From: an uncultured virus (IMG/VR IMGVR_UViG_2061766007_000738)
Lineage: Duplodnaviria; Heunggongvirae; Uroviricota; Caudoviricetes
Direction: 5' to 3' (one strand)
Length of the DNA stretch: 57,388 bases
IMG/VR virus record: IMGVR_UViG_2061766007_000738
Shown: positions 8,171-55,140 of the stretch, piece by piece
How positions within the stretch are numbered: the stretch's first letter is position 1
Layout: each line of letters begins with the position of its first letter
Notes under the pieces: model-generated
What the model was told of the DNA's origin: nothing
The model's database searches: none
The model's input: the letters and a program-made list of their open reading frames with translations, nothing else
Program-made: the position numbers and the translations under genes

Positions 8171-8517
8171 TCGTCACCCTCATAGGTAGCGCTAAGACCC
8201 TCTTCTTCGGGCTCCCCCGATTCTTCTTCAAAATCTACGATGCTTGTAAGTTTCAGTCCGGTAGCCCACTTAGCGCCTTCCTTGTTTAGCTTTATGTAGG
8301 TGAATCCCGCTTTCATCGCATCCATGACCCCATTTAGATCTTCGGTGCTGATGTCCAATTCTGAGGGCACCCTTTCGGTAACCATTTCCGCTACGTCTTC
8401 GGGTGTGATCTCCGGTAGCTCTATTTCTTCAGGATCTCCGTCGGCTAATGAGACGAAATATTCATCATATGTATTCTGCAGCTTTCTGAGTGCTGCGTAT
8501 AACTCAGTGTTCGCCAT
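8167..8517 (-). CDS. Acidic hypothetical protein
   Basis: 116-aa E/D-rich ORF overlapping both neighbours. Confidence 0.55.
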   Translation of the reverse strand: MANTELYAALRKLQNTYDEYFVSLADGDPEEIELPEITPEDVAEMVTERVPSELDISTEDLNGVMDAMKAGFTYIKLNKEGAKWATGLKLTSIVDFEEESGEPEEEGLSATYEGDE

Positions 8518-9385
8518 AAATCGTATTGGTGAGTGTGCTGTTGAACTTGGCGGCTAAACGATCGATTTTGTTGGCGTGTTGAGATATCGCGGCTTCCGAA
8601 ATGCCCAAACGTTTGGCCATCGNNNNNNNNNNNNNNNNNNNNNNNNNNNNNNNNNNNNNNNTGTCTATTTCCGGCAATTCAGTGTAGAATGAGTCGATAT
8701 ACAGTTCGTTGGCGTTCCGCCCTCTTGCTTCTAAGGAGTCGCCGTGTTCTCCGCGTGTTGCACTAGTCGACGTGGTTCCGTAAATAGACATCAAACGTCC
8801 GACTTTGCTGATCGGCATGCCGCTCTTATCTGCCAACATCGCCAGAGAGGGTTCTGCACCTGTCTCCAAAATATAATCCTGCTTAATCGCTTCGAGTTGC
8901 TTGCGCTCCAACGCGGAGCGTTCTGGAACATGTATGAAATTTCCCCGATCAGCCGCCAAACGTTTCAACCCTTGAAGTCGGTTGTAAACATATGTATTGA
9001 GCGATACGCCTTGTTTAGGGTCGTATCCGGGTAGCGCATCCAGCGCGAGCAGTCTTGCTCTCGTCAGATACCGACGATCTCCGCCAACCATATTAGTGAT
9101 CGCAGCATCAATTGTTGGCATCAAAGCAGCAAGCACTTCTTGTTTGCTGTTGGGTGCGTTGTCTTTGTAGTGCTGCCACGCATCTTCGCCAGAAACCCGT
9201 TGCTTTTTCACTTCGGCATTGATTTCGTCTTTGTGTTGACGATATTCATTGAGTCCTTGGAAGATGCCTGCGGTAGTATCCCCGGATTTAGGCGTAGTCG
9301 TATTGACCCCCACTTTAGTGCCGGTTTTCAGTCCGGTGGATTGCGCGGGAGCGGTATTTCTAGCTGTGTTTGAACCGATAGCCAT
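8504..9385 (-). CDS. Sigma70-family RNA polymerase sigma factor (group 3, FliA/SigB-like)
   Basis: Region 2-like ALPGYDPKQGVSLNTYVYNRL, IHVP linker, region 3-like TGAEPSLAMLADKSGM, and region 4 HTH MAKRLGISEAAISQ. Confidence 0.85.
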   Translation of the reverse strand: MAIGSNTARNTAPAQSTGLKTGTKVGVNTTTPKSGDTTAGIFQGLNEYRQHKDEINAEVKKQRVSGEDAWQHYKDNAPNSKQEVLAALMPTIDAAITNMVGGDRRYLTRARLLALDALPGYDPKQGVSLNTYVYNRLQGLKRLAADRGNFIHVPERSALERKQLEAIKQDYILETGAEPSLAMLADKSGMPISKVGRLMSIYGTTSTSATRGEHGDSLEARGRNANELYIDSFYTELPEIDXXXXXXXXXXXXXXMAKRLGISEAAISQHANKIDRLAAKFNSTLTNTIYGEH

Positions 9386-31339: not shown

Positions 31340-33509
31340 CCGATAGACTGCGAAAGATCCCCGCCAACCAGATCGCTGATATTGTCGACCTGCCCTTGCT
31401 GAAGACCGAGGATGATATCCCAAAGTTTGAAGAATGCCGACTTGATCGACTTCTCCATCACCAGCGTCCGTTGATCGCCATAGGCTTCCTGCAGGGAATC
31501 GTTGACTCGCGCCAGGAACAGCAAGCGACCAAGCGCATCCACCGCGGCAAGAAGTTTCGGGATATAACTCCGAACCTCACGAACCGAGGTATCATCTTCC
31601 GCAAGAAGTTTCAACAGGTCGACATCCAGGACCTGCCGAACNNNNNNNNNNNNNNNNNNNNNNNNNNNNGACATCCGTGGATTTCGGTTCCAGCGTTGTC
31701 GTTTCGGTGTAATCCACATACGCAGGTTCTTCTTGCGCAAATGCCATGTCGAAACCGGCTTGCGCCGCAACCTTGATAAGGTANNNNNNNNNNNNNNNNN
31801 NNNNNNNNNNNNNNNNNNNNNNNNNNNNNNNNNNTGACGATCTTCATGGCATCTTTTGGCGCAACCGCGTAGTTGGTCACGAGATATTTGGCAACATCAA
31901 TCTTATCTCCGGACGCCTTTTTCATCAGCTTGTCCGACAGCGTCAGCAGTCCATCCGCGTTGTAGATCGTGACCTTGATAAGCTTGTCACGTTCTGCGAT
32001 GGCTTCGATGGCATTGGATTGATCCACAAGGTCGAGATCGTTCTTAGTATTGTACTCGGACGGAACGCCGTAGATCTTGCTGCCTTCCGGGACGCGAAGC
32101 GAATTACCGCGGATCTGCAACTTGGAACCGGGTTTGCCGACGATGATCTGAGTGATGAACTCACGCTTGGCGGAGACATCCGGCATCGGCGAAAGCTTCG
32201 ATTCGATCGTCGCCTTCAACCAATCCGCACCGCTATCGCTGCAGTCGGGGAAACGACCGACGCCCTCTCCGGCATCGAGCATGGTCGGGAAAACCTTGAT
32301 ACCGACAAACTTCGACTCATCGGTATTGATCCAGTGCCCGTTCGCACCGCTGTCGTTGGTCAGCATCAGCGCTTCACCGCGCGGAGTGACGACCACGGTC
32401 TTGTCGAACGAGTAGCCAAAAGTATCACTCGTGAGACTGTTGACGTCGGTACCACCCAGCGGAATCGACATGTCCATCGGATAGTACTGCCCGAGCGGGG
32501 CAAAATCAATGCGGTGCATCGTGCGGGATTGCCCGTCGTCCACGGGAATGATCCCGTAGGCTTCTTTGGTCTTGGTGAACTTATCAAAGCCTTCCGCACC
32601 ATTGAGGTCGATCACATAGGCGGTGATCGTGGTGCCATCCAGCTTCAGCAATTCATACAGACCGTTCTGCGCGGGAGTCTGGTAATCAGAATTCTGCTTG
32701 AGTTTGAAGATTTCGCTCGGAACCAATCCGCGGTTATCAACGATCACGGCACCATCCCGAAGAATGGAAGCCTTCTCTTCATCGGAGAGATCGCGCGCCT
32801 CCACGGAGGCGGAAGTCAGCACCTTGACCGGTTCCCGCGCGGGCTCGGACGCCTTGCTGTCGACCTTGACGCGGTCGATGACCACATTGTCGATAAGTTG
32901 GTCGACGAAACTGTCCATCGAAGACTTGTCATACCACTGAGCGAAGGCGTTGTAACCGGCAGGNNNNNNNNNNNNNNNNNNNNNNNNNNNTTTGCCAAGC
33001 TTGGGTGCGCTGATATTGTCGAGAGCGTTATAAAGATTGGCGTAGGAGCCGTTGTAGCTGAGAATGACCTGTGCCATATCACCTGCGGCGATCTTGAGAA
33101 TGGTCGGGGTGTCGGTGATCTCGCCGCTGGCAACTTTGGTAAACATCGTAAAAGGCAGATTCAACGAGACGCCGCCTGCACCACCATTGGTACCGCCACG
33201 AGTCATCTGCGGCTTATCTACAGCCTCTGCGGTAGTGTCGGTCTTCTTCGACAACAGATACGACAGCGTGTTGTCCTGCACAGGGAGGAACCGGTTGTTN
33301 NNNNNNNNNTCGCAGATCTGACCGTGGCGGTAAATCGACGGAATATAGATGTAAGTATCGCCGACTTTCGCCAGCAACACTCCGATACCGCGGTTATCTT
33401 TTTCGTCCGAGTCAACCATGCTGAAGCCCAGCAGATATTCGCGGAGCGACGGCATCACTTCGGCAATTTGGCTGTACGCAGCCTGCGACATCACGTCTTC
33501 GATTTTCAT
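31336..33509 (-). CDS. Large putative virion/head protein (about 720 aa)
   Basis: ORFs 31611..33509 and 31336..31770 joined; strong codon bias; KVAS, KIAA, KKAS and KVAA motifs. Confidence 0.55.
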
Positions 33510-33582
33510 TGGGTAGTCCTTGTTTTCAGGCGCGCGCCTTTACAGATATTTGAAAAATTTCAACTCAAAGTTAAATGTAGCA

Positions 33583-35801
33583 CTAAATGTCAACCTTGTC
33601 ACCCGCAAACGACTCAAATGCAAGTTGCGGGAAGTAGCTGGTGCTGTTCTTATAGGTGTTTGCACCGCGTGCCGCGCGGTCAACAAAAGTCTTCATCAGA
33701 TTTTCGCCAGACAGCGCGGTAAGGAAATCTTTATCAGTGTTTACCCAACCGCGCGCCCTAACCATCACCGGTTCGAACGGCGGAGNNNNNNNNNNNNNNN
33801 NCGCCATTCTTACGAAGGTACTCACGAACCTGCGGGGTTACACGTGTACCTATGGTATAGTGAAGAGCAGGCTGCTCAAGATATCCGGAAGCATCGTCAA
33901 CGCCGACTTTGCGCGAACCTTCCCGCGGTTCCCAGTGTGCGGCGATATCATCGTAATCAGCATAATCTCCAGCGATGCGCCCAAGTACACCATCAGGATC
34001 AGTGATCTGCACCTTGTTAAGATATCCGCGGGCTACACTTTCCAAAGCTCGCCGCTGAGTGTCAAGCTTATTGTCTGCGAGGACTTGCCGGAAACCTTTG
34101 ACGAATTGTCTACGGGCTTCCCCGATACCCTTGTGTTCGACCACCTTCGAGATGTCCAACATTCCGGTAGTGAGCGCATCACCTGCTTCGACTTGCTGAC
34201 CGGGTTTTACCGTCAACTCGGAATCCGGCGGAATCCAGTATTCAGTATCACCGACGCTGAGATATTGACCACCTTGCGGTGCAGGTCTAGTTCCGCCGAC
34301 TTTACCATCTACTTCGGACATCACCGCACCGCCGACGAAGTTTTCCGGCATATCGAGGAACTGCTCGATGGCTTCGAAACCCTTCTTGATACGCTTGGCG
34401 GACTTTTCCTCACCTCCGACGTGCTTGGAGTTGGACACTACCAATCCGTTGGCTAAAAGAAAGAGGTGATCAGGGTGATCTACTTCAATGTCGTAAGCGG
34501 TAAACTCACCGGCGTCCTCAACCCGTTGCCGTGACAACAGCAACGGCGGATTGCCGTTTTTGTAATCTACTTCTACGGGCAATCCATGATATTGTTCTCC
34601 GAGGGGGCGAACCACGTGTCTCGCACCACCACTACACAGAATTTTATGCTCGGCGGTGGCGATAACCATCAGTGGCTTATTTGCGCAATAGAAGTTCCAA
34701 ATGAACATCGGCATAGTGCCGTGATTGAACACATTAATGACCTTCACCGGACGCAGGGAACAGTCATCGGCGTTTACGCCGATTACCGTATCACCGATTT
34801 CGATATCAGCTATCCGTTTGATCGAGTGATCTGCCATCCGAACTTCGNNNNNNNNNNNNNNNGCGTCGACCATGAAGGAATTGATGTCATTCAGCCCAAC
34901 AACGTCGCCGACTTCCGGGAGAGCTCCGGATTCATGGATGCCTGAACACTTGGCGCACACGCCCTCAGCCGCTTTGCACGTCTCCGCAGAGCGGATCGGG
35001 ATGTTTCCGTCGAGATTATCAAGAATCTTTTCGGTAATGACGGTATCCTTCGGATAGACCGTACCATCTTTTCCTTTTACTTCACGTGCGAGTAGCGAGC
35101 CGATATTGTGAGTATCATCCGCGNNNNNNNNNNNNNNNNNNNNNTCCGCAGTCTTCACTGGTGACTACGACGCGGTGCGCAATCTGCCGAGCCCGACGGG
35201 AAAGGTAACCCGCCTTCGGCGTAGCCATCTGGATCTGGACATAACCATATCTGCCGCCGTGAGACGCATTCCAATAATCCAGCGGTGAAACCCCTTCCGC
35301 ATAAGAGCGGAGAGTTGGGTGGGGGATCGCTTTCATTTTGGAGTCCACTGTGAGCAAATCCCCGAACACCATCTGGCGGAGTTGTGTGGGATTACCTCGG
35401 ATACCGTGCTTGACCATTACGCCGAACGCATTGTCCTGATCGGCGAGATAGTCGACTATCTCTTTGTCCAGTGTCTCGGTTGCCTTGTGCGTGTAATCGA
35501 GGATCTGCTTACGCTTTTCCTGATTGGTGAGTCGAGGGTTCTGCACGATCTTGTTCAGGTCTTTCTTGATCTGCTCACGATAGGCTCGGAACTCCGGCGG
35601 GATCACCAGATCACGAAGATGCACCGAGGNNNNNNNNNNNNNNNNNNNNNNNNNNNNGATTTTGGCATACTCGTCCCCCGAACGCTCTTTGGCTATGCGG
35701 TCAAAGAGCTTCGTAATAGCCTTCTTGTCCAGAGTACCGTAATCACGATACTCCGGAGGAAGCTGCTCGTTGAGAAGTACGCGCCCGGGAGAAGTAATCA
35801 T
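33583..35801 (-). CDS. rpoC: DNA-directed RNA polymerase beta' subunit, C-terminal half (contains an intein)
   Basis: TSPGRVLLN; GIRGNPTQLRQM; bridge helix SYAEGVSPLDYWNASHGGRYG...AGYLSRR...SEDCG; Zn site IRSAETC...GVCAKCSG; trigger loop ...SKHVGG; C-terminal DFLTALSGENL. Three fragments joined across gaps. Confidence 0.9.
34430..34862 (-). mobile_element. Mini-intein in the beta' trigger loop (N-terminal junction hidden by a gap)
   Basis: EVRMADHSIKRIADIEIGDTV, block B ATAEH, blocks F/G YDIEVDHPDHLFLLANGLVVSN followed by S. Confidence 0.85.
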
Positions 35802-35805
35802 CTAA

Positions 35806-36960
35806 TCAGTATCTGGGGGTGATCGCCTTTGCCACCGGAGCCGCAACCTCGGAAGCACCCACGGCAACCTGCCTACCGGCGTGTCTGAAAAGCGGGTCTA
35901 TATTGGCTTTGCCGAAGTTGACCATGGCATCAGCAATGCGCTCAGAATTTCTGCCAACGAAATCAAGCATATATCCAACCCCGGTACCCAGCACGGTTTT
36001 TGCACTGCCCTTGATATAACTGGCTTTTGAGCTGCGCAACTTGCCCAAGTCACCCTCAGGAGCTTTGATCTTGCCAGACTGCAACAGATCACCGTTTTTG
36101 GCGTATACGCGGGTCTTGTTGCTAATCGGTTCGACGGGTTTTACGTCAACTTTATAGGTTTGTTTCCCTTGTGGGGTGCTGTTGCTTGCTGTGAGTTTGC
36201 CGCCGGATAGATTTCTCTTATCCACTTGTTGTAAATTAAGCGAGTGTGCAGTTGCCCTATCAACTTCCACGGCACCTACAACTTTTCCGTTTTTTGTTAC
36301 AGGGAGGATCGTCTTGCCCGGTGTGCNNNNNNNNNNNNNNNNNNNNNNNNNNNNNNNNNNNNNNNNNNNNNNNNNNNNNNNNNNNNNNNNNNNNNNNNNN
36401 NNNNNNNNNNNNNNNNNNNNNNNNNNNNNNNNNNNNNNNNNNNNNNNNNNNNNNNNNNNNNNCAAGCGCCTCTTTTTGAGATTGCCGATAACTGCCGCCT
36501 TCTTTATAGCCTTCTACGATGTCTTTGGCGCCCAAGGCTCCGCCAACGCCCGTACCCACTACGGCCCCGTANNNNNNNNNNNNNNNNNNNNNNNNNNNNN
36601 NNNNNNNNNNNNNNNNNNNNNNNNNNNNNNNNNNNNNNNCATAGAGTTCTTTGACCTGCTCGTCGGCCATACCCGAATGCGTGCGTTTGATGGCAGACTC
36701 CCGCAGGGCACGTGCGTCCTCGGGGGACTTCTTCGTGACCGCTCGGTTTGCAACATCGCCCTTTTCCGCGGTACGCTTATCCTCGATTGNNNNNNNNNNN
36801 NNNNNNNNNNNNNNNNNNNNNNNNNNNNNNNNNNNNNNNNNNNNNNNAAAACCGCCAAGACCCCACAGCGCATTGCTGGAGAGGTCTTTCTTTTTACGGA
36901 TGTAACGGTCGATCAAGAAACCACCAACCGCACCGGCACCGCCGGTTGCCAATATCCCCN
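35806..36960 (-). CDS. Glycine-zipper-containing protein(s); gene boundaries obscured by gaps
   Basis: GGAGAVGGFL, WGLGG, YGAVVGTGVGGALGA and VLGTGVG segments. Confidence 0.4.
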
Positions 36961-37593
36961 NNNNNNNNNNNNNNNNNNNNNNNNNNNNNNNNNNNNNNNN
37001 NNNNNNNNNNNNNNNNNNNNNNNNNNNNNNNNNNNNNNNNNNNNNNNNNNNNNNNNNNNNNNNNNNNNNNNNNNNNNNNNNNNNNNNNNNNNNNNNNNNN
37101 NNNNNNNNNNNNNNNNNNNNNNNNNNNNNNNNNNNNNNNNNNNNNNNNNNNNNNNNNNNNNNNNNNNNNNNNNNNNNNNNNNNNNNNNNNNNNNNNNNNN
37201 NNNNNNNNNNNNNNNNNNNNNNNNNNNNNNNNNNNNNNNNNNNNNNNNNNNNNNNNNNNNNNNNNNNNNNNNNNNNNNNNNNNNNCCCTGATTATTATTC
37301 CCGCCACCACTGAACGCATTAGCCGCGACGTTTGTCATCATTGCGGTCGTACCCAATGCCGCCGCAGGAAGTGCGATGTTCCATAGGTTGCGATTGGCGG
37401 TGTAGTGCTTATACCCAACGCTATTTGCACCGAGCAACCGTTGTGCCCAACTATCAAACTTTCGTTCAACCGGACCAAGTTTAGGTGCCACCGGAGGCTT
37501 CGGAGTAGGTTCGCCGGAATCGTAAGGAACCTCGGCGTCTCCGGGAATATCGCCTACTTCGTCGGCTACTTTTGCCAAACCCTCAAACAACAT
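36961..37593 (-). CDS. Putative head-packaged protein (3' end inside a gap)
   Basis: Starts MLFEGLAKVAD; hydrophobic segment IALPAAALGTTAMM. Confidence 0.45.
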
Positions 37594-38553
37594 TATCCCA
37601 CCCGTTGAAGAAGTTGCTCAACCACATTCAGCAGATTATCGATCCGACTCAGAACCACGTCCTGATTCTCACGCGTCTCGGAGGTTTCGCGACGAAGCCC
37701 TTGAATGTCGGTGCGGACAGCATTGACGTTACGAGCAAGACTCGAAACGCTCTTGTCCAGCTTTTCGTTCTGTTTGACCACCGAATCCACCGTCTTCAGA
37801 ATATCCGGGTNNNNNNNNNNNNNNNNNNNNNNTCACCCTGCGGAGCAGGCATACCGCTATGCGGATCAATTTGCTGTCCGGTGGTCGGATCGACAATCAT
37901 TCCGGTATTAGGGTCTATCGGCATGCCGGTGGCATCGTCAATCATCATACCCGTGGAAGGATCGAAAGTCTGTCCGGGACCCTGTTGGGGAACCGGAGCT
38001 TCTTGTGCCGGAGCTTCGGGAGCCGGCGNNNNNNNNNNNNNNNNNNNNNNNNNNNNNNNNNNNNNNNNACATCCTCTTGCGGGGCTTCACCACCCTGCGG
38101 AGGAACTTCACCCTGCGGCTGAGCACCCGCATCACCCGCCTGCTGACGCGCTTGTTCGATCATCTGAATGGCTTGGTTGGGATCAAGCGGCTGACCCTCG
38201 GGGGTGGCGAACTCCTGCAAAGACTTATTGAAAAGAATACCGGTCAGCGGATCCTGTTCGATGCCCTGTTGCGGGTCAAGAACGATAAAACCGGTTTCGG
38301 CATCAATGGGTTCGCCGTTGGGACCTTGGACGATTTGAATGTTCGGAGCACCACCTTGCGGAGCACTCTGTTCCGGCGGAGGCATCGGAGCACCACCCTG
38401 TTCAGGCGGCATCTGCGCACCAGGATCTTGCGGAGCGACCGCGCCTTCCGGGGGCATCGCTCCGGCTTGCTGGGCGTTCATCGCCTCTTGGGTGTAGGGA
38501 ACGAATGCAACCTTATTAAGGAAGGCTTTGGCGTAAGGGGTCTGCTCGAACAT
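37593..38553 (-). CDS. P/Q-rich protein with DPxTG repeats and C-terminal coiled coil
   Basis: Starts with LNKVAFVP; two clusters of D-P-x-T-G repeats; heptad C-terminus; joined across two gaps. Confidence 0.6.
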
Positions 38554-38591
38554 GGATTAAGATTCCTGTGTTGAAAAGATGTTTCGTATTG

Positions 38592-38619
38592 AATATGTGT
38601 TGTTTTCAGAAAATGTCAA
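38592..38619 (-). promoter_or_regulatory. Possible sigma70-type promoter TTGACA-N16-CATATT
   Basis: Perfect -35 overlapping the RNAP stop codon and a 4/6 match to -10, in an AT-rich spacer upstream of the gene at 38553. Confidence 0.35.
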
Positions 38620-41600
38620 TCTGCGTCGGGTATTTCGACTGCAGTATCGTAAGTGATCTTTCCCTGCCGGAGCGCTTGAAGCATCGCCGCCTTCGACGGG
38701 AATTTAATAGGTTTACCCTTCGGAGGACGGGAGGCGATATAAAGACCCTGAGAAAATTCCTCCATCGGCACGCCGGTGTATGCCTTAAGTGTAGCAGGAT
38801 TTAGCAAGTTCTTCGAGGGAACCATTCGTTCCGCAGCTTCTTGTACAGCTTTGCGGGACACCGGAACATGGAAAGACATAGTGTCCTGAACCACGGTACC
38901 GTCCCAGAGCGGGAAGGTATACGGTCCGGGAATGGTCATATCCCAACCTTCCGTGCAGGAAGACTCGATAACTTTATCTATTCGCACCCATTTAATATCC
39001 GTGCGGCGAACTAACGCACACCATTCCTTGGCGAACTGTTCCGCTTCTTCAGGTGTGTGTTTATGTTTATTCTGAGAATAATCGCGGTAAGCGCTCCAAT
39101 CAGCCTGTTCCATCCGCTCTGCCATCTTCAGCGCAATAGCGCGTGAAGTATGTCCGTGTTTGACCATGGCGTTGACGCAAGTTGGCCAATGATTAATATC
39201 TGGATCGGGAATTGCGGCAAACTCACCGCGCATGAATCTAGGTGCGGGTACGATATCACACCTATCGGGTATACTGGAAGTCACGAGGTCAGCGAAGATC
39301 GCCTCCAGCTTATTCTGGGAGTCTTCATGGAACAGGCGGAATTGCGAAGTGCGCAAGCTGAGTTGTCTGACATCTTCACAAGAAAACCTTATCCCATAAC
39401 AATCCATCGTGGAGTTGACCCCGCGATAGGTGTACACGGACGTTCTTATATTCAGTTTACGACAGAGCTCTTGAATACTATCACGGAGGTAACAACTTAC
39501 TGTATCGTACTGGATTGTTTTATTATAGGCGTCCTTTTGTTTACAGTAGCGGTATGAAACACTCCCGTCCGTAGAGAGCAGCCCTGACAGAATGCCAGCG
39601 AGGTGCGCTTGAGACCCACAGAGGCATTGCCAGGGTATCCGTTTATTTTCCGCACCCGTTCCTATGAGCTCTTTAAGGTCTTGTGCGGCGTCACGTTCTA
39701 TCCCGAAACGTATTTTATGCTTGAGGGTTTTTCCAAAACTGCCTGTTGCAGATATTTCTTGATCAACCGGATCGCGATATATCGGGACTATACTTTTTTC
39801 TCCCGATGTCAGCTCGATCATGTGTTTACGAATGTCTTCGCAATTCGCGGCGATGTAAACATACCCCTGCGCGTCTACCCAGCCGTCACCAATTACTGCT
39901 CCGATGAATTCTCCCAGTTTATAGCTTAACGCGACTTGTTTTCCCAGCTTAATGTAGTTGAGACAATTCTCCGGTTCATTCTGCGTACTGAAGTTCACCA
40001 CAGGCGACAGCCGCCCAACGCTTTCTTGCGGAGTGCTCCGTTCCAGTTCCATGGTCTCCGGATTGAGCGTAATCAGCGAATGGTCCTCCGATGCTGTAAT
40101 TACGCGCCTAAAACCACCCAAGGAGCTGACCTCAACGGTATACATCTTCAATCCGACATGCCGCGATATTTTCTGTATCGGTGCGCAGACACGATCTCCG
40201 GTCTCGGGATCAATAGTATCCACGAACCAGTCCGGTTGACAATCCCATTCCGTAACAGTGTCAGACTTCTGAACTTCGGTCCCAGGGACCACTGGAATTT
40301 CGCTAATCGGTAACGCAATGGCGCAACAAGCGACACGGGAAGTTTTTTCAATCATGGTATTTACCCTCTCGTTAGGTTGGTTAATACCATAATCTACACT
40401 CGATTCAGAATTTTTCAAGAGCTGTTTTAGCTTTTCTTGCGAAATTGCCACTCTTACCATGTTCCGTATTGAATCGCCGTCGTGATCGGAGTTCATGCCC
40501 TTAGCGATAAGCGGATTGTATCTGACAGTGTTGCCCTTGGTAATTTTGGGCCACAATGCCATGATATTGTATTTATGCAGGGTGGGTGCTCTGTTCACGA
40601 GTACCGGACGTTTCTTCATTTCCTCTTCCAACGCATCCTTGGCCACGGCGGTTCTATTCTGAACCTCCTTCATGGCTTCAGAGAGCGGGTACCCTCTCAN
40701 NNNNNNNNNNNNNNNNNNNNNNNNNNNNNAAGGCGCGCCATGCACCATCCTCGGGAAGGCCGACTTCGTCCAAGCCTAACCTACTGTCCGGTGAAATTAC
40801 AGCCAATCCGCCCAAATCCGCAGTAGCACCAAAAACCTTCCTATGAAGGCTTCCAAACTTAGGCGAACCTTTTCCGAAAGCCCATTTGAGCACGCCTTCG
40901 ACACCTTTGTCCTGCAACTTCTTATCCGGGGAGTCGATCATCCCTATGACTGCCTTTACCGACTCATGCAGATTCTTTCGCGCATCCAAAAGCATCTCAT
41001 CAGGGAGTTGGCCCTGTGCATCTTTGAAGTCCTGCGCGGCATCGATCATGGTCTTATAGAGATAATTGGCGTCGGAGACGATGCCCACAGCGTTACCCAT
41101 GACTGAAACCGGTCTATACTTGGGCGGCAGAATCGGAAGTCTTGTAAGGAAGAGATCCTGCGGATCCTTATGCTCACGAAGAATACCGGCAAGTGCGCGG
41201 TAGCGCTTGAGCAACTTATCCCGCTTGAGCGCCGGAAGCTTTTCCGTCTTCAACGTTTTCTGCACTTTGAGAAATTCCTTCTCCAGATCCAACGAACCAA
41301 GGATATCCCTGATGGCATCCGGACCGGTCTTGCCGTTTACTTGTTGTTCGCCGTTAAGAACGCCTTGGAAGTCTTTCTCCTTCCATCCAAGTATGGATAC
41401 CACCGCCTTTTCCATCAGCGGATTCAGAATCGGTTNNNNNNNNNNNNNNNNNNNNNNNNNNNNNNNNNNNNNNNNNNNNNNNNNNNNNNNNNNNNNNNNN
41501 NNNNNNNNNNAGGTGCTGTTGTTCTGCACTTGACGATTGCCGGTGAGTTTCTCGACATCCGGTTCCGTAGCGGCGTACATGTGGATGCGATTACCGCGGT

Positions 41601-44600
41601 CTTCAAGATTCACGCCCGCGGCGCGGAGGTGTTCGAAAAACTTCTTGTGCACCAATGGAATCCCAGGAGTGGGCACTGCTTCGCCATTCCGCACCGCTCT
41701 CCAGAAATCGTGGTTGGCTTGTCCGCGAACGAGCTTGGTGTCTTTCATGACTTCCGACTTGAGTCCGGTGTGCCCGAAAAGCGCGCCTATTTCCATCGAA
41801 CCGAACCTACGCGCGGAATTTTCGCCGCCTTTGAGCGGGAGATCTTCCATCGTATAATCGCCGGTTCCACGTGCCTTCTCCTTTTTCTCCCCCATGTGTT
41901 TGAACTTGAGGTAATAGAGATAACCAGTGGAAACATCCGGAACGGTCTTTCCAGTATTCGGATCAAGCAGATTTTCCGACTCCTTCAACCCGTGATCCTG
42001 CAGCATCTGCATGACGGTATCCGCCATCGGCTCTTCCGAGAAGTCTTTCCAAACGATCGGCTTACCAGTGGCTTTGGCGATCTTACCAAGCTGCAACGAA
42101 CCGAGAACCATGGGATTGACGCGGCTGGGAAGACCGAGCGGGGACTGATAGACTTCGAAGGGTTCACCGTTCTCGTCCTGCAACATCTCGTTGTCGGGAA
42201 GGATCTGCCCGATGATGCCTTTGTTGCCGAAAACGGTGGAGTTGCCCGACCACAGCGCTTTGCCGTTTCTACGCACATACAGCGTGTGGTACTTGGGAAC
42301 AGTACAGCAGTAAATCACACCATCGTACTGCTCCCAGCACTCGGAGTACTGATCCGTGCGGGGGTTCACATACAAAGGGGCTTCTTCAACCCCACCCACC
42401 GGAGCTTGGGTGTAATACCAACGAGGGGATCCATAGATATCGGTCGATTCCTCAAGAGTGATGAAGTCGTGACCTTCTTGCTTTATCACGTGCTTATGGT
42501 TGGGCGTAACGAAGGTGTCGATCGAAGCCGTCTCCAGATGATACATGGGACCGCTATAGTTGTAGCACTCAAGATGAGTCGGGGTCTGGAGCTCGAAGTG
42601 CTGATCTTCGGGGTCCATCGTCCATACCGTATCCTTTAGTGTCAACTCCTCAAAGGGTATCCATCCGCGGGTTCCGGTGAGTATTTCGGTGTCGCGGGCG
42701 AAGCACATTTTGTCCCCAACTTTCGCTGGAGTAATGGCTTTAGTATAAATGGAAATGTTTTTGTTAGTGCGCCCGATATCCATCACCGTACCGGGATAAT
42801 CGTGTTCCCATGTTTTGACGATGGGCGTGATCGGGTGTTTGGAGACACCTTTGATTCCGGGCTCACGAGTACCAATGGCAAGCACCATCGGATCGCCCTT
42901 ATGCAACTCGGTACCGGGCATGACGATACCGTCATCACCAATGGTTTCGAGCTGATCCTTGGTAAAGTCGGATGTATCGAACGCTTTCAAAAAGCGTTGT
43001 TTATCGTAAACGGTCTCGTTATCAACCGGTGTGCGCGTTTTATAGAGTTGCTCGGAGGCGAGCTTGGTCTTTGCCGCGGATTCGGAGATGGTAATAGCGT
43101 CCAATGCAGTTCCGGCATTGGGACCACTCACCATCGCAACCTTGAGGTTCACACCGATCGCGGCGTTACCTCTATCATCCGTATAGTTGGACGCAACCAG
43201 CGGTTGCCCCTTGGTGATAACGTCGCCTTCTTTAACAAGCGGGCGTTGCGACAGCCACCCCATATTGTTGGCGGGTAACTGATTATAGAGCTGGATCTTG
43301 TGCTGCTTGCCTTTGCGATCACGATAGATGACTTCGTCATCGGTAGCGCGTGTCACCACACCGTCAGCGTCGGCAAACTTAGCACCCAACTTACAACCCA
43401 TGTAGGCTTCGGTCGTGGAATCGGAACCGTCCTCATTGGGCAGATAACGCTGAACCAGCGGAGCTTCGCGTGCAGGAAGCGACATAGCCTGCGAAGAGGC
43501 TTTGGAACCGAGCATGGTACGATTGGAACGAAGAGCTCCGATACCGGCGATGAATCCGGTATTATCGGACATCATCCGCGAAGAGTCCGCAACATAGAAG
43601 TCCACATCCTTCCGCGGCATATATTCCAGATCGCCGCCGTGTCTGAATGCGGGGATGAATTCTTCAGGATCCGCTTTGGGATCGAAATATTCCGGCGTGG
43701 CTACATTGCCCTTGGAGATGGTGTCCATGTCCACATAGGCAGGAGTGCCGTCTTTGGAAAGCATCTTCGTCCAGAGTCTGCCGCGGGAATCCTTTTTGAC
43801 TCCGTGAGTCGCAAATACTTGAAGTCCAACAGTTTGGCTTTCCGGGCTATTACCACACCAGAAACCTAGAGTACTCTCCCCACGCCGACAGTACACCAAC
43901 CCTCCGGGAACCGTCGGGCAGTATACCACACCGTTATATTGTTCCAAGTAGAACCCCTTGGCGAGCAACTCATGATCCGGCTCAGTATCATCCAGAAAAC
44001 GGGTACGCACGCTCAATCCGGTGAGCCGATGGATATCTTCGGCGTATTCTACAGTCAACCAATTACCGTTGACAACGTACATTCGATGGTTGGGGGTGAC
44101 AAGATAAGCGATACGATCATCTTTGTAACCGCAGAGCTTACCGACATAAGAATACGCATGGATCAGTTGTGGAGGGTGAAACTCAATTTTATCGTCGACC
44201 AGACAAGCGAGCTCATCCTCGGCGTTCAAGTCTTGAACTTTTTTCCAACCCTTTTTTGTCATCAGCTCGGTATCTTGAGCGTAGCAACGGATCGGATCTA
44301 TAAATCCAAGGTACGAATTGTTCACGCCACGACTCTCATCCGATGCGGCTCTTTCCGTTCCAAGACCGCCCTCGCCGATACGCGTGACCGAAGTGGTGAA
44401 ATCCAACGCCTCAATGGGGCTTGCTCCATCTATGTAGCCAGCGTGGCGATCTTCTTGGAAAATCGCATCTACGTGGGGCTGGAACACACCAGTAGGTACA
44501 TCCTTGAGATTTCCGTTCTTATCGATCTTGTTCAGCAACTTCCTGAACATGCCGCCACCATCACGGACGATGCGTTCCGGGAGATAATCCGCGGCTCCCA

Positions 44601-45543
44601 TGATGGTCTGGAACTGCAGGGCATCGCGATCGTCGGTTTCATCATCGGAGTAGGTCTGAGCTACGCGGAGGATCTTATTGGTGGCGGCGAGAACCGCATC
44701 CCCGGTAAGCTTTTCGAAGGGTTGACCCAGTGTAGTGGTCGTGGTATCCTTGTCGAGGAGCGTCTTCGACAACTTGTCATTCCACAGCTCCGCATACTCC
44801 GCGGCTTCGCGTTTGGATTTGCCCTCGATAATATTAGCGTACTTCTTGTAGTTGTTGTCGAACAACTCATCGCCCCATGCCGCTCGAATTTCATCGGGAG
44901 ACTTACCGGACGCCAGAAGCAACGGAAGAAGACCGTAATTGCGGGTTCCGAACTTCCACGTGAACACACCATTAGTCGGGCTCAGCATAATATTGGATTG
45001 CCGACCAGTACCTTGGGCGGGGTTTACATGGGTGGCTATGATACCGTCACCTTTGATACGGGTATACATACCCGGGCGGAGACGGAACATATTCCGCAGA
45101 CCGTATTCGTTACCGCTTCGGATGAACACACCACGGTTGGTCATATAGGGCACGCTCACCAGTGTGTTATTATCTTTGCGGTCGATAACTTTACCGGTGG
45201 CTTTATCATAAAGCACCCAATCACCTTTCAGGCGTGTACCCAACGTCTTCCCTTCCAGCAACGCCAGCTTCTCGTCCTGCGGGGTATAGTCTTTGTCCTG
45301 GTAGTGAAGGTTTTCCACTGCAAGGACGTACTTGTCACTCTCCAGCGGAAAACGTGTGTTGACCGCCGCGGCTACGTTGTCCAAGGTGCGTTTCCGCACC
45401 TCCGGATAATCGGTTAAGTCGTAGGGCTCATCACCCTGTTCGAAATAGCCGAGGTAGGGAACCTTGTTGCCCTGCGNNNNNNNNNNNNNNNNNNNNNNNN
45501 NNNNAGTCAGTTGCGGGGAGAGAAGTTCGTTGAGATCAGGCAT
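38616..45543 (-). CDS. rpoB: DNA-directed RNA polymerase beta fused to the N-terminal half of beta' (three inteins)
   Basis: Beta motifs VPYMTNRGVFIRSG, GEGGL, GDKM/..GNKG, PLGLPSRVN, YYLKFKH and RFGSME. In the same frame follow beta' motifs LPILPPKYRP, DANYLY and AVISPD..L.LDEVGLP. After a 30-N gap: VLVNRAPTLHKYNI and NSDHDGD/TMSFHVP. Confidence 0.92.
38883..40472 (-). mobile_element. Intein with LAGLIDADG homing endonuclease, 530 aa, Ser start and Gln-Asp end
   Basis: Removing it restores NSDHDGD-TMSFHVP. Block B ASEDH; endonuclease motifs FIGAVIGDG and ILSGLLSTDG; blocks F/G GWDMTIPGPYTFPLWDGTVVQD followed by T. Confidence 0.9.
42241..42705 (-). mobile_element. Mini-intein (155 aa) in the beta GDK motif
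   Basis: CFARDTEILT...VTPNH...VRRNGKALWSGN followed by S; removal restores GDKM-STVFGNKG. Confidence 0.9.
43849..44286 (-). mobile_element. Mini-intein (146 aa) in beta region D
   Basis: CYAQDTELMTKKGW...VTPNH...FWCGN followed by S; removal restores DPIR-SPESQTVGL (cf. CPIETPEGPNIGL). Confidence 0.9.
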
Positions 45544-46377
45544 CAGAGTTGTGCGGCTTTCTCTTTCAGATCTTCGATATAGGTCTGTTCTTCGCGCTTG
45601 GTCGGGAGCGTCTGCTCATTGCCGAGCACCACTTGAAGTGCGGACGGGGTGTTGGTAAGATTTTGCGGCATCACCACATCTTCCAACATTTTCAGCTTCT
45701 GACGGTTCTCGTCCTTCTTCTTGGTGTAGAGATAGGTAGCATNNNNNNNNNNNNNNNNNNNNNNNNNNNNNNNNNNNNNNNNNNNNNNNNNNNNNNNNNN
45801 NGGACCGGAGGCCTGCTTGCTCACACCCTGAAGTTCGAGATGTCGCGCGTACAGGCGATCAAGTTTGTTGCGAAGATCCGCAATTTCCTTGTCGAGTTCT
45901 TGCTCACGATCCTCTTCCATGATCTTTTTGGTAGCATTGCCGATAGCGAAGGCAGTAGGAATCGCCACCAAGGGCGGGATCAGTGCGGCGGNNNNNNNNN
46001 NNNNNNNNNNNNNNNNNNNNNNNNNNNNNNNNNNNNNNNNNNNNCGACTTGCTTTCCAACTTCTTCGGTTCATTTAGCCCAATCTCCCGCACCTCCTTGA
46101 CCGCAGCAACTTCCGGAGCACTGTTGGGTGCGTTGTAAGAATAGAGCGCGTTGACTTTGTTCTTATGGATTTCTTGACGTTTGCGGTCCCACGCCTTTTC
46201 TGCAACTTTGTTGGCAATGNNNNNNNNNNNNNNNNNNNNNNNNNNNNNNNNNNNNNNNNNNNNNNNNNNNNNNNNNNNNNNNNNNNNNNNNNNNNNNNNN
46301 NNNNNNNNNNNNNNNNNNNNNNNNNNNNNNNNNNNNNNNNNAATATACCAAGGGCTGTCAGCAGCAGTCTTATGCAT
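45543..46377 (-). CDS. Putative head-packaged membrane-active protein
   Basis: Starts MHKTAA; KQAS motif; hydrophobic segments; joined across gaps. Confidence 0.5.
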
Positions 46378-53663: not shown

Positions 53664-54288
53664 TTATACGCTCGGGGGCGTCGGTTTCGGGGCTTGATTC
53701 CACAATGCCAGCTCGGCATCCCGTCGATTTTTCAGCCCCTGCACGACCTGCGGAATATAAAACCTGCCTTGTTTATCCGTTTTTACATTCGGAGTTTGGG
53801 CATTAAAGCGGTTATCATACTTTCTGACATATTGCCAGCGACCGAATTCGCCAGGAATCTTTTCCAGTTCGTCTGCTTGGAGGTGCTTCATTATCGTACT
53901 GTTCTTGACGGCATTTCTTCCGACATTATATCCCCAACTAAGCAACGCTGCTTGTTGATTGGGGTTGAGTTTTNNNNNNNNNNNNNNNNNACAAATCTTC
54001 GGTTTCTGCAATACGGTTGTGTAGAAATCGTTGGGCATCCTTCTCCGGCATACCCATATCTCTATACTTGTTAATAAGGTTTTGATCGGTCAGACCGTAT
54101 CCGATCGTCTCGATTCCTTTTATATCCTTATATACACTATGCCGATTTCTGGCATTAAGCCTCGTACCTTCAAGCTGTGCAATAAAGGGTCTTGCCACGC
54201 GCAACGCCGGGCTTCCGAGATCTCCCAGCTGGTCGACATATCGCGCGGCTATCTTTCTAAGGCACTCTTTAACGTTCCCTGTCAACAC
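53664..54288 (-). CDS. GH24 phage lysozyme (endolysin)
   Basis: IAQLEG...YKDIKGIETIGYG (catalytic E/D/T pattern), NQQAALLSWGYNVG and GLKNRRDAELALW; joined across a gap. Confidence 0.9.
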
Positions 54289-54415
54289 CCAGCTTCTCCA
54301 ATATCTTCGCCGCGGATGCATGCCGCAACGCAAAACAAAACGCCCACGTCCTTATGGTTCGGTTCTCCAAAAGACGCAGGATCAGCTCAACCAATATTCT
54401 TTTTATTGCTTTCAA
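54269..54415 (-). CDS. Possible 48-aa peptide in the lysis cassette
   Basis: Manual read from TTG: KAIKRILVELILRLLENRTIRTWAFCFALRH...DRER*; fills the space between two genes. Confidence 0.3.
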   Translation of the reverse strand: MKAIKRILVELILRLLENRTIRTWAFCFALRHASAAKILEKLGVDRER

Positions 54416-54684: not shown

Positions 54685-55020
54685 TCATTTCTTGATCTCG
54701 ACGTTACGTTTTACGAACGTCACAAACACTGCATTTAGAATAGCGAGGACACTACGGGCGCAATATCCCGCCAAAGCAATGGATATAGTGCGAAGATTCT
54801 CGGACAAACCCATTTCGAGTGTAGCCCAGTGAATGATAAGCCCACTAAAACCTGCAATGATGATCTCCGGAATGGCGATCTTCCACGAGTACGGCTCTCC
54901 GCGAGCCTTGCCGTAGAGAGTCCGTGTAAATCCACCAAATGCCGCCAATCCGATGATCGGCAGCAGATCCAACAATCTCAGCAGGTTTGCCTTCATTCTT
55001 TGTAGTTGATCCCGTGGCAT
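54685..55020 (-). CDS. Holin (LydA-like)
   Basis: 111 aa with about three TM segments (GLAAFGG; IIIAGFSGLII; IALAGY) and a basic C-terminus; upstream of the lysozyme gene. Confidence 0.75.
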   Translation of the reverse strand: MPRDQLQRMKANLLRLLDLLPIIGLAAFGGFTRTLYGKARGEPYSWKIAIPEIIIAGFSGLIIHWATLEMGLSENLRTISIALAGYCARSVLAILNAVFVTFVKRNVEIKK

Positions 55021-55140
55021 GGTTTTGACCTATTCGCTCTCATAATAGAGCATCGACAATACCACGTGTCAAATCCGGCGGTAAAGTCCTATACCAACGA
55101 AAGGAAATAAGCAGAGGTTAGCCAGAACTGGGCGTCACTA

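What the first reader, a model, noticed from the sequence alone, without database searches (positions are those of the whole stretch)
33583..45543. Phage multisubunit RNAP with rearranged subunit boundaries: [beta + beta'-N] and [beta'-C]
Seen: beta motifs run in one frame into beta' motifs (junction about 41590-41610, LRAAGVNLEDRGNRIHMYAA). That chain ends shortly after the catalytic DxDGD. Beta' resumes about 2.8 kb downstream, after unrelated genes, at MITSPGRVLLN. Without inteins the chains are about 1480 and 595 aa, much shorter than E. coli beta plus beta' (1342 + 1407). Known: beta-beta' fusions occur in Helicobacter and Wolbachia, and cyanobacteria and plastids split beta' just after the TTPGR motif, whereas this split falls just before it. 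Tailed phages with cellular-like RNAPs have been reported from metagenomes but are largely uncharacterised biochemically. Inference: this is a streamlined two-chain enzyme with both double-psi barrels on one polypeptide. No alpha or omega gene is in the window.
Basis: partly seen in the sequence, partly recalled or inferred. Interest (0 to 1): 0.88.

Follow-up and report, generated by a model that had tools for sequence, protein, structure and literature searches.

The report
Fused-and-split phage RNA polymerase, four inteins
A cattle-gut phage encodes a bacterial-type RNA polymerase as two oddly cut chains interrupted by four self-splicing inteins; the layout is real but normal for a large, barely described phage family.

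Summary
On the minus strand, one gene (45543-38616) runs from beta straight into beta-prime with no stop and no N at the junction (41610-41569). It ends 88 residues after the catalytic NSDHDGD loop. Beta-prime resumes 2.8 kb downstream (35801-33583) at MITSPGRVLLN.

The window holds 78 N-runs that do not keep true length, and three of them break the frame inside these genes. Contigs of three public runs restore the frame at all three (40700-40729 is 29 nt, not 30).

Without four inteins the chains are about 1489 and 613 aa.

The layout is not peculiar to this phage:
- 149 of 149 best metagenome clusters and 80 of 80 IMG/VR loci end chain 1 at the same site.
- Cultured Salmonella phage Arash (gp206 + gp216) and Vibrio phages D69/D148/D181 share it.
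- A sister clade has everything in one chain of about 2020 aa.

No alpha or omega was found in the window or in two complete relatives. A weak sigma-like gene is present.

I found no paper describing the boundary rearrangement. This scan has already reported it on other DNA (e1-5944915 and others).

Verdict: a new member of a known kind, made notable by four inteins, one of them in the Mg-binding loop.

The parts
38616..45543 (-). Chain 1 gene: all of beta fused to the N-terminal part of beta' (to just before the TTPGR-equivalent), with three inteins. About 2320 codons with gaps filled, about 1489 without inteins.
   Evidence: X1 contig record 7 (7658 nt) spans 38629-45600. The L001 orthologue is a single ORF of 2215 aa.
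43849..44286 (-). Intein 1: 146-aa mini-intein in beta at GFIDPIR|C...WCGN|SPES.
   Evidence: L001 has a 365-aa intein at the same site. The related strain in run X3 lacks exactly 438 nt net here. The segment resembles the phage thymidylate-synthase family phrog_85.
42241..42705 (-). Intein 2: 155-aa mini-intein in the beta catalytic barrel at GDKM|C...WSGN|STVFGNKG.
   Evidence: Weak Hint_2 hit (E 0.0022). L001 has a 362-aa intein at the same site.
41569..41610 (-). Beta / beta' junction (NLEDRGNRIHMYAA): open frame, no N.
   Evidence: The same junction is crossed by 149 of 149 best family representatives and 80 of 80 IMG/VR loci.
41436..41510 (.). N-run of 75 that stands for 96 nt. It hides the stretch where bacterial beta' has its N-terminal zinc element.
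   Evidence: X1 joint with 96 letters between. L001 has 33 residues here without Cys, and the A1 consensus has no conserved Cys.
40700..40729 (.). N-run of 30 that stands for 29 nt. It causes the apparent frame change inside chain 1.
   Evidence: 'Left out 1' in contigs of X1, X2 and X3. L001 predicts 29 nt.
40473..40493 (-). Catalytic Mg-binding loop NSDHDGD of beta'.
38883..40472 (-). Intein 3: 530 aa with a LAGLIDADG endonuclease, inserted directly after DGD. It starts SIRNMVRVAIS, ends TVVQD, and is followed by Thr.
   Evidence: Model residues 56-537 match solved endonuclease-bearing inteins (2cw7: Z 24.3, rmsd 3.2, 367 aligned; 7qss: Z 23.9). L001 has no intein at this site.
35806..38553 (-). 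Intervening genes between the two chains (heavily N-masked). They are not RNAP parts and are not conserved outside the closest relative.
33583..35801 (-). Chain 2 gene: the C-terminal part of beta' (bridge helix, second zinc site, trigger loop) with one intein. About 759 codons with gaps filled, about 613 without the intein.
   Evidence: X1 contig record 1 (4751 nt) spans 33500-35864. The L001 orthologue is 995 aa.
34430..34862 (-). Intein 4: mini-intein of about 146 aa in the trigger loop, ending LVVSN|SKHVGG. Its first residues lie under N-run 34848-34862.
   Evidence: L001 has a 381-aa LAGLIDADG intein at the same site.
8504..9385 (-). Sigma-like ORF (293 aa), the candidate initiation factor.
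   Evidence: phrog_351, E 6.6e-6. NCBIfam sigma families at E 1.6e-4 to 1.7e-3, all far below their cut-offs. BLASTP to Arash sigma gp10, E 3e-8. Homologues in Arash and D181. No Pfam sigma hit at E <= 0.001.

Best explanation
The window comes from a tailed phage of the cattle gut. It encodes its own bacterial-type RNA polymerase core as two polypeptides.

Chain 1 carries all of beta, joined head-to-tail to the front of beta'. It therefore holds both double-psi barrels, that is, the whole active centre. Chain 2 carries the rest of beta': bridge helix, second zinc site and trigger loop.

The cut is a clean scission of an originally continuous fused protein. It is ancient and is kept throughout a large phage family.

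In this phage, four inteins must splice out before the enzyme can work. Two sit in beta, one sits directly behind the Mg-binding DGD, and one sits in the trigger loop.

Inferred, not shown:
- The two chains assemble without alpha or omega. The covalent beta-beta' link would replace the alpha dimer's role as assembly platform.
- Promoters are read with a phage sigma-like factor.
- By analogy with phage Arash, the enzyme may be carried in the virion.
For: Shown here:
- The junction is open and the domain order is as stated.
- Public contigs repair the frame breaks at the N-runs.
- Relative L001 (84% identical) has single ORFs for both genes.
- In the 1.84-billion-protein search, all 149 other proteins among the best 150 (E < 1e-146) cross the junction and end 0-41 residues from the query's end. 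None holds beta'-C.
- In 80 of 80 IMG/VR loci chain 1 stops 0-20 codons from the same point. In 67 of 80, beta'-C lies 899-5943 nt downstream on the same strand.
- In the unsplit relative L002 the two chains map to residues ..1458 and 1462.., so nothing is lost at the cut.
- The AlphaFold model of the beta-C + beta'-N segment is confident across the junction (pLDDT 85.7, pTM 0.75). It matches cyanobacterial gamma and plastid RpoC1 (8gzh_D, E 3.9e-31).
- PF01000, PF01193 and PF01192 gave 0 of 4 in Arash, D181 and the L002 and L001 contigs, with controls 14 of 14. Each of these four records has one catalytic locus.
- The sigma-like gene is homologous to Arash gp10.

From a paper: in Arash virion mass spectrometry gp206 had the most spectra (3516), and gp216 and sigma gp10 were also detected (PMC10585845, passages read).

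A portal homologue lies upstream of chain 1 in the window, L001, L002, Arash and D181.
Against: - No enzyme of this family has been purified, so the subunit content is unknown.
- The window is a fragment, so alpha or omega could be encoded elsewhere. Divergent analogues would escape Pfam.
- Host alpha/omega could be borrowed.
- The sigma assignment is weak: it is below every curated cut-off, with no Pfam hit at E <= 0.001.
- The Arash authors themselves say that abundant enzymes may merely contaminate virion preparations.
- Letters under the N-runs were not seen, so an internal stop in this particular copy is not formally excluded.
- Intein 3 ends in Asp and lacks a penultimate His. Its first 48 residues were modelled with low confidence (pLDDT 31-51), so its splicing competence is inferred only from conservation of the allele.
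Confidence: 0.78

Rival explanations
1. Hybrid enzyme: the two phage chains form the catalytic core but assemble on the host's alpha dimer, and perhaps its omega. The phage enzyme would then not be self-sufficient.
For: No phage alpha or omega was found, which fits borrowing as well as it fits dispensability. The sequences are close enough to bacterial beta/beta' (about 25% identity; PDB E about 1e-45 to 1e-50) that alpha-binding surfaces could persist.
Against: Bacterial beta-beta' fusions and phiKZ-type alpha-less enzymes show that alpha is not chemically required (the phiKZ point is from reviews PMC7598289 and PMC13282480, passages read). If the enzyme is packaged in virions, as the Arash data hint, host subunits would have to be packaged too. 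The passages of the Arash paper that I read list none, and I did not read the whole table.
Confidence: 0.15
2. Broken or decaying genes: the frame changes at the N-runs and the four insertions mean that this copy is a pseudogene set.
For: The frame differs across three N-runs in the window as given.
Against: Independent assemblies restore every frame. Only 25 of 78 N-runs in the whole window keep the frame, which is about what arbitrary gap lengths would give. All catalytic motifs are intact. The insertions sit at known intein hot spots of the family, with intact end motifs.
Confidence: 0.03
3. The two chains are joined after translation by a split intein or another ligation, giving one beta-beta' protein like that of the L002 clade.
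For: Inteins are rife in this family: 109 of 151 sequences compared (149 representatives plus L001 and L002) carry an insertion of >= 100 aa. Earlier notes of this scan describe split inteins in phage RNAPs.
Against: Chain 1 ends and chain 2 begins within about 3 residues of continuous L002 sequence, which leaves no room for intein halves. Tails are 0-41 residues in 149 of 149. Arash gp206 and gp216 were reported as separate virion proteins.
Confidence: 0.02
4. Cellular origin: a bacterial contig or host rpoBC operon mistaken for phage.
For: The best solved-structure matches are bacterial and plastid subunits.
Against: The window has a LydA-type holin, a phage lysozyme, a capsid-like gene and a portal homologue. 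No ribosomal-protein genes flank it, unlike the true bacterial operon in L104. There is no close relative in 185,579 species genomes, against at least 590 viral contigs. In the beta'-N tree the phage rows are split from the 3 bacterial rows (SH-aLRT 100), but that sampling is thin.
Confidence: 0.01

Closest known systems
RNA polymerase of Salmonella phage Arash (OQ632216: gp206 1525 aa, gp216 606 aa, sigma gp10), and Vibrio phages D69/D148/D181
   Same: Same two-chain layout and the same cut. gp206 ends ..SNTPIKIG and gp216 starts MMTQIITPGAL. Other genes lie between the chains, the portal gene is just upstream, and a sigma homologue is present.
   Different: Only about 29% identical to the window over the segment compared. 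The Arash chains are intein-free lengths. In D181 beta is cut once more, next to a homing-endonuclease gene. The records and the Arash paper simply call the proteins beta and beta'; the passages I read do not mention the rearranged boundary.
mReC, multisubunit-RNAP-encoding Caudovirales (Weinheimer & Aylward 2020, PMC7481178)
   Same: Tailed phages from metagenomes with beta/beta' close enough to cellular ones to align, and genomes often near 200 kb (sections 6, 7, 12, 13 read).
   Different: Their filter asked for COG0085 and COG0086 matches of at least 800 aa and a literal NADxDGD. The window has NSDHDGD, and its beta'-C is about 613 aa. 'Fused' and 'fusion' occur in the paper only for crAssphage, and 'split' does not occur. 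I could not show that the contigs are the same.
Single-chain beta-beta' phage clade (L002, L092-L103)
   Same: Same beta-beta' junction. 38% identical to the window; a starred clade next to the window's clade.
   Different: Beta' is not cut: the ORFs are 2011-2393 aa (for L002; for L092-L103). The order of events (one split, two splits or a re-fusion) is unresolved.
Fused rpoB-rpoC of Helicobacteraceae and Wolbachia
   Same: Beta C-terminus joined to beta' N-terminus in one polypeptide (PMC7483510, passage read, citing Zakharova 1999 and Lane & Darst 2010).
   Different: Those enzymes keep beta' whole and use alpha and omega (recalled). No close relationship: the genome scan found no close relative.
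Cyanobacterial and plastid gamma (RpoC1) / beta' (RpoC2) split
   Same: Beta' is cut in two after the catalytic domain. The best structural matches of the model are gamma/RpoC1 chains (TM 0.62-0.65 by target length).
   Different: The phage cut lies about 65 residues earlier: gamma 8syi_D residues 157-549 of 624 align to query residues 284-671 of 681. In the phage, the N-half is also fused to beta.
phiKZ/AR9-type jumbo-phage RNAPs
   Same: Phage-encoded multisubunit RNAPs without alpha or omega, one of them virion-borne (reviews PMC7598289, PMC7824862 and PMC13282480, passages read).
   Different: Those are very divergent, come in four or five pieces and two sets per genome, and have no sigma. 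Here there are two chains, one set per genome, clear similarity to bacterial subunits, and a sigma-like gene.

Membership tests
Arash-like fused-and-split phage RNAP family | Beta C-terminus continues into beta' N-terminus in one open frame | tested here: met
   Junction at 41610-41569 is open with no N. The same holds in 149 of 149 representatives.
Arash-like fused-and-split phage RNAP family | Chain 1 ends at the conserved site about 85-90 residues after DGD, just before the TTPGR-equivalent | tested here: met
   Ends ..ITYDTAVEIPDAD*, 88 residues after DGD. The tail beyond the shared end is 0-41 residues in 149 of 149 and 0-20 codons in 80 of 80.
Arash-like fused-and-split phage RNAP family | Separate beta'-C gene on the same strand downstream, never adjacent | tested here: met
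   Starts at 35801, 2814 nt downstream. In 67 of 80 loci the distance is 899-5943 nt; of the 13 without, 6 have under 2.2 kb of flank left.
Arash-like fused-and-split phage RNAP family | Sequence kinship above that to cellular subunits | tested here: met
   84% identical to L001. The L001 segment is 38-75% identical to the family representatives, against about 25% to solved bacterial chains.
mReC (Weinheimer & Aylward 2020) | Tailed-phage contig with hallmark genes | tested here: met
   Holin, lysozyme, capsid-like and portal-like genes.
mReC (Weinheimer & Aylward 2020) | The paper's selection filter: COG0085 and COG0086 matches of at least 800 aa, with a literal NADxDGD in the COG0086 match | tested here: not met
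   The loop reads NSDHDGD. Beta'-C is about 613 aa without its intein. The filter is quoted from Methods. It is a selection rule, not a biological definition.
mReC (Weinheimer & Aylward 2020) | Placement inside the mReC clade of their RNAP tree | not testable with these tools
   No mReC sequences were at hand. The sample numbers of L001 and L002 are not in their supplement. Some IMG/VR loci share sample numbers with their list, but the contig lengths differ.
Multisubunit (two-barrel) RNA polymerase | Catalytic motifs: beta' DxDGD; beta barrel lysines (GxKG); bridge helix; trigger loop | tested here: met
   NSDHDGD, FGNKG..KAGYLSRRARQ.. and SKHVGG are read. Pfam Rpb2_6, Rpb1_2, Rpb1_4 and Rpb1_5 are above their cut-offs; Rpb1_1 is below (33.9 against 39.7 bits). 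The motif names are recalled.
Intein (Hint + LAGLIDADG) for insertion 3 | Hint fold with an endonuclease domain; nucleophile at position 1 and at +1; C-terminal Asn | tested here: inconclusive
   The fold is met for residues 56-537 (2cw7: Z 24.3, rmsd 3.2, 367 aligned), and LAGLIDADG_3 hits at E 1.1e-5. Ser1 and Thr+1 are present. The last residue is Asp, not Asn, and is invariant in 13 of 13 aligned alleles. The first 48 residues are not modelled confidently. Splicing is untested.

The most novel reading that the evidence does not exclude
The family's enzyme is a self-sufficient minimal cellular-type RNA polymerase. It would consist of two chains plus a phage sigma, with no alpha or omega and no N-terminal zinc element. 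It would be packed in the virion and injected to start transcription. In this phage its birth depends on four protein-splicing events. One of them sits in the Mg-binding loop and uses an intein with Ser1, a C-terminal Asp, and a roughly 40-residue loop at the position where 'atypically split' inteins are cut. That intein may be the unsplit counterpart of the split inteins seen at the same loop in other phage RNAPs.
Probability: 0.3. Interest if true: 0.7.

Novelty: new member of a known kind. Interest (0 to 1): 0.45.

Why it matters
A natural RNA polymerase with both catalytic barrels on one chain, and no alpha or omega, would be the simplest close relative of the bacterial enzyme. It bears on how the core assembles and on how beta and beta' came to be separate genes.

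The family is large: at least 590 viral contigs and at least 149 clusters at 50% identity. It has cultured members in Salmonella and Vibrio, so the question can be tested at the bench. Yet I found no paper that describes its subunit boundaries.

This window adds three things:
- a cattle-gut member with four inteins at catalytic sites;
- a natural strain pair that differs by exactly one intein;
- a contiguous example of an unusual intein allele in the DGD loop.

It does not add a new kind of system.

Tried and rejected
- Whole genome: none is held for this window.
- Genome collection: a single-protein scan found 191 pattern matches but no relative.
Nothing was folded.
- A conserved accessory subunit between the two chains is rejected. 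The four L001 genes there hit nothing in 79 IMG/VR loci, L002, Arash or D181. Only the first hits the window. Pfam and PHROGs gave only an OCRE-like hit.
- Homing endonuclease genes as the cause of the cut: none lie between the chains in the window or L001. One lies beside the extra beta cut in D181.
The result is inconclusive.
- Pfam sigma, alpha and omega models: no hit among 100 window ORFs at E <= 0.001.
- My first thought was that the 48 residues after DGD are a degenerate copy of the downstream extein. I dropped it: about 12 related alleles share the same start (S-h-x-N-h..I.h).
- The fold of those 48 residues came out at low confidence, so the position of the first strand is not shown.
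- Run X3 has no cover over 35520-37540. That is not evidence for anything.
- The tree could not order the three fused clades.
- Literature searches that found no description of the layout. Passages of PMC7598289, PMC7824862 and PMC13282480 do not mention it either.
Full report
WHAT IS IN THE WINDOW

Nearly all long ORFs lie on the minus strand. The window holds 78 runs of N, 10 to 326 bases long.

Translating 45543 down to 40730 gives a protein with beta motifs. Pfam Rpb2_6 hits at E 4e-34, and I read a beta-like ..SNRTMLGSKASSQA.. stretch and GDKM..FGNKG. This protein runs straight on into beta' at NLEDRGNRIHMYAATEPDV (41610-41569), in DNA without any N or stop.

After the N-run 40700-40729 the beta' sequence goes on in another frame. 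It reads RGYPLSEAMKEV.. NRAPTLHKYNIM .. NSDHDGD (Rpb1_2, E 1.1e-13) and stops at 38616.

Beta' resumes at the ATG at 35801 (MITSPGRVLLN), 2814 nt downstream. It runs to 33583 in three frame pieces separated by N-runs (Rpb1_4 and Rpb1_5).

THE N-RUNS

Only 25 of 78 N-runs keep the best open frame on both sides. That is about what arbitrary gap lengths would give, although many runs also lie at gene ends.

Compared with the ungapped relative L001, the runs stand for other lengths than their own.

A search of public runs found the stretch in bovine gut metagenomes. X1 and X2 come from one sample, which may be the source. X3 comes from another study and shares 0.77 of the words.

Laying their contigs on 33500-45600 gave the following:
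- one letter fewer at 40700 in all 3 runs;
- 96 letters for the 75 N at 41436-41510 (X1);
- +15 at 45475 (X1);
- +27 at 35657 (X1);
- +2 at 35144 (X1);
- +21 at 34862 (X1);
- +11 at 33801 in all 3 runs.

Each value is what is needed to restore or keep the frame. One X1 contig of 7658 nt spans 38629-45600, and one of 4751 nt spans 33500-35864.

The letters under the Ns are not printed, so I infer the absence of stops there rather than having seen it. X1 and X2 are not independent of the window.

ANATOMY

With gaps filled, chain 1 has about 2320 codons and chain 2 about 759. Four insertions have intein ends:
1. 44286-43849: 146 aa, PIR|C..GN|SPES.
2. 42705-42241: 155 aa, GDKM|C..GN|STVFGNKG.
3. 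40472-38883: 530 aa, DGD|SIRNMV..TVVQD|TMSFHVP, with LAGLIDADG_3 at E 1.1e-5.
4. About 34862-34430: about 146 aa, ending VVSN|SKHVGG in the trigger loop.

Without the inteins the chains are about 1489 and 613 aa.

L001 has larger, endonuclease-bearing inteins at sites 1, 2 and 4 and none at site 3. The X3 strain lacks exactly 438 nt net at site 1, which is the intein's length. So these are discrete mobile insertions.

The stretch where bacterial beta' has its N-terminal zinc element is short and free of Cys in L001 and in the family consensus. A C..CxxxxxxCxxC cluster is kept in chain 2. The comparison with E. coli here is from recall.

HOW WIDE THE LAYOUT IS

L001 is 84% identical to the window and sits on a 27.8-kb IMG/VR contig. 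Its chain 1 is one ORF of 2215 aa. Four unrelated ORFs follow, and then chain 2 of 995 aa.

I searched an intein-free 681-aa piece of L001 (the end of beta plus beta'-N) against 1.84 billion representatives. It gave 8173 hits at E <= 0.001 and 1802 at E <= 1e-30. These totals include cellular subunits.

Of the best 150 hits, one is L001 itself. All other 149 cross the junction and end 0-41 residues from the query's end, mostly within 6. None contains beta'-C. Intein-free members are about 1450-1480 aa long.

In IMG/VR at least 590 stretches encode a relative.
- In 80 of 80, chain 1 stops 0-20 codons from the same point.
- In 67 of 80, beta'-C lies on the same strand 899-5943 nt downstream (median 1572).
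- Of the 13 without it, 6 have under 2.2 kb of flank left and 7 have 4.3-10 kb.

The genes in between are not conserved, so I reject a hidden accessory subunit there.

Cultured members:
- Salmonella phage Arash has gp206 (1525 aa) and gp216 (606 aa), 4.8 kb apart.
- Vibrio phages D69/D148/D181 also share the layout. In D181, beta is cut once more beside a homing-endonuclease gene.

Other cultured phages with cell-like RNAPs have other boundaries:
- YerA41: beta'-N | beta'-C | beta.
- Ralstonia RP13: beta' in two separated genes.
- Rhizobium TM30: beta' whole.

A SISTER CLADE AND THE ORDER OF EVENTS

L002 is 38% identical to the window and sits on a 155-kb contig. It encodes beta and all of beta' in one ORF of 2011 aa.

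Twelve more contigs matched across the cut site. Eight of them give uninterrupted ORFs of 2021-2393 aa. One has 2953 aa with an insertion, and three are cut by contig ends.

In L002 the two chains of the split form align to residues ..1458 and 1462... The cut is therefore a clean scission, and there is no room for split-intein halves.

I built a quick IQ-TREE tree of beta'-N with 49 rows. It used 31 of 91 usable split representatives (every third) and 3 bacterial rpoC sequences as outgroup. L095 and L101 were dropped, and L102 was never extracted because it starts beyond the beta'-N part. YerA41 and RP13 sit on very long branches.

The tree puts all fused forms together (SH-aLRT 87) as three well-supported clades:
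- Arash + D181 (100);
- the single-chain clade (98);
- the main split clade, which holds L001 (99).

Their order is unresolved. One split, two splits at the same site, or a re-fusion all remain possible.

HOW IT PROBABLY WORKS

Shown:
- Both barrels and the Mg loop are on chain 1.
- The bridge helix and trigger loop are on chain 2.
- The junction segment folds confidently (pLDDT 85.7, pTM 0.75). Its best structural matches are cyanobacterial gamma and plastid RpoC1 chains.
- The phage cut lies about 65 residues before the cyanobacterial one.

No alpha or omega:
- Pfam found none in 100 window ORFs.
- PF01000, PF01193 and PF01192 matched 0 of 4 records: the Arash and D181 genomes, the 81%-complete L002 contig and the L001 fragment. 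Controls matched 14 of 14.
- Each of these four records has a single catalytic locus.

A sigma-like ORF (8504-9385):
- It hits phrog_351 at E 6.6e-6.
- It hits NCBIfam sigma families at E about 1e-4 to 1e-3, far below their cut-offs.
- It matches Arash sigma gp10 at E 3e-8.
- It has homologues in Arash and D181.
- It has no Pfam hit.

In Arash virion proteomics gp206 had the most spectra (3516), and gp216 (1210) and gp10 (467) were also detected. The authors note that this may reflect sheer abundance (PMC10585845, passages read). A portal homologue lies just upstream of chain 1 in the window, L001, L002, Arash and D181.

Inferred:
- The covalent beta-beta' link makes the alpha platform dispensable.
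- The phage sigma directs the enzyme to promoters.
- The enzyme may be delivered with the virion.

THE DGD-LOOP INTEIN

Intein 3 belongs to a recurrent allele. In my flank-based scan, 147 of 150 sequences had both flanks, and 54 of those 147 carry an insertion of 274-573 aa at this loop.

About 12 of them, the window included, start S-[IVLM]-x-N-[LM] directly after DGD and end G-[TI]-[VI]-V-[QYM]-D before Thr. The terminal Asp is invariant in 13 of 13 aligned alleles.

The model's residues 56-537 match solved endonuclease inteins: 2cw7 at Z 24.3 (rmsd 3.2, 367 aligned) and 7qss at Z 23.9 (rmsd 3.9, 389 aligned). Those alignments begin at residues 11-14 of the solved inteins. This fits a first strand (SIRNMVRVAIS) separated from the Hint core by a linker of about 40 residues. 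That part has pLDDT of only 31-51, so it remains a reading.

That inteins ending in Asp can splice is something I recall (Amitai et al. 2004). I did not retrieve it.

LITERATURE

The lineage of tailed phages with alignable beta/beta' was described as mReC. I read sections 6, 7, 12 and 13 of PMC7481178 and ran a word search. 'Fused' and 'fusion' refer only to crAssphage, and 'split' does not occur. Their filter would not literally pass this window.

Reviews of phage RNAPs do not describe the layout in the passages I read (PMC7598289, PMC7824862, PMC13282480). The Arash paper does not either.

Searches found no description. The library lacks most subscription journals and I could not see bioRxiv supplements, so 'not in print' is not proven.

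The fusion in Helicobacteraceae and Wolbachia is confirmed from a passage in PMC7483510.

EARLIER NOTES OF THIS SCAN

Four earlier follow-ups on other genomes reported the same layout with the same closest relative, Arash: e1-5944915, e1-5676219, e1-5859846 and e1-5818526. I reached the same points from my own calls. Those notes are not independent evidence.

Notes e1-5403156 and e1-5403165 describe split inteins with a 13-residue front piece at the DxDGD loop. They gave me the lead for reading the start of intein 3.

VERDICT

It is the normal layout of a large, under-described phage family. This window is a new member of that family, notable for its four inteins.

Noticed in passing
window, whole (78 N-runs; e.g. 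53974-53990 inside the lysozyme gene 53667-54351): The N-runs do not keep true length. Only 25 of 78 keep the frame, and genes such as the phage lysozyme appear split in two frames across a run. ORF calls over the whole window are unreliable at these points.
   Followed up: partly
window 43813-44393: A related strain in run X3 (another study) skips 579 nt here and has 141 other letters. The net difference is -438 nt, exactly the length of intein 1. This is a natural pair with and without the intein, with diverged flanks.
   Followed up: partly
relatives P0009-P0137 (about 25 of the 54 rows with a DGD-loop insertion): In one intein allele the loop reads DFDG-N | C[CLV]D.. ..[WY]D | T. The residue before the Cys is Asn instead of the third catalytic Asp, and the insertion ends in Asp. 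Intein-free relatives always have DGD. With standard boundaries the spliced loop would lack the third Asp. This is unexplained.
   Followed up: no
relatives (13 rows, e.g. P0027, P0041, P0122): A third DGD-loop allele starts with Gln, Ala, Glu, Gly, Asp, Leu or Tyr rather than Cys/Ser, and ends ..LSN|T. This may be a class-3-like intein; the class is recalled.
   Followed up: no
window 40472-40329 (first 48 residues of intein 3): The first roughly 11 residues of the intein seem to be separated from the Hint core by a poorly structured linker of about 40 residues. That is the position where atypically split inteins are cut.
   Followed up: partly
L002 4884-10919; L092-L103: A clade of phages encodes beta and the whole of beta' as one polypeptide of 2011-2393 aa (for L002; for the rest).
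   Followed up: partly
149 representatives plus L001 and L002, compared with P0014: 109 of 151 sequences carry at least one insertion of >= 100 aa. The hot spots are beta DPIK|TPE, the NR..M motif, GDK|, the RFG motif and the beta' DGD loop. The BLAST-based count misses some.
   Followed up: partly
window 54688-55029 and 53667-54351: Lysis genes: a LydA-type holin (E 1.5e-12) next to a phage lysozyme (E 4.9e-13).
   Followed up: no
window 44286-43849 (intein 1): This intein resembles one in the thymidylate synthase of Corynebacterium phage P1201 (68.6% over 35 residues) and phrog_85 (E 3.8e-13). Related inteins therefore occur in unrelated phage genes.
   Followed up: no
L004 (Vibrio phage D181) 5832-11346: Beta is cut a second time (515 aa + 1007 aa), with an annotated homing-endonuclease gene in the gap.
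   Followed up: no
window 38700-40690: The stretch is held by bovine gut metagenome runs of two studies at shares of 0.77 or more.
   Followed up: partly
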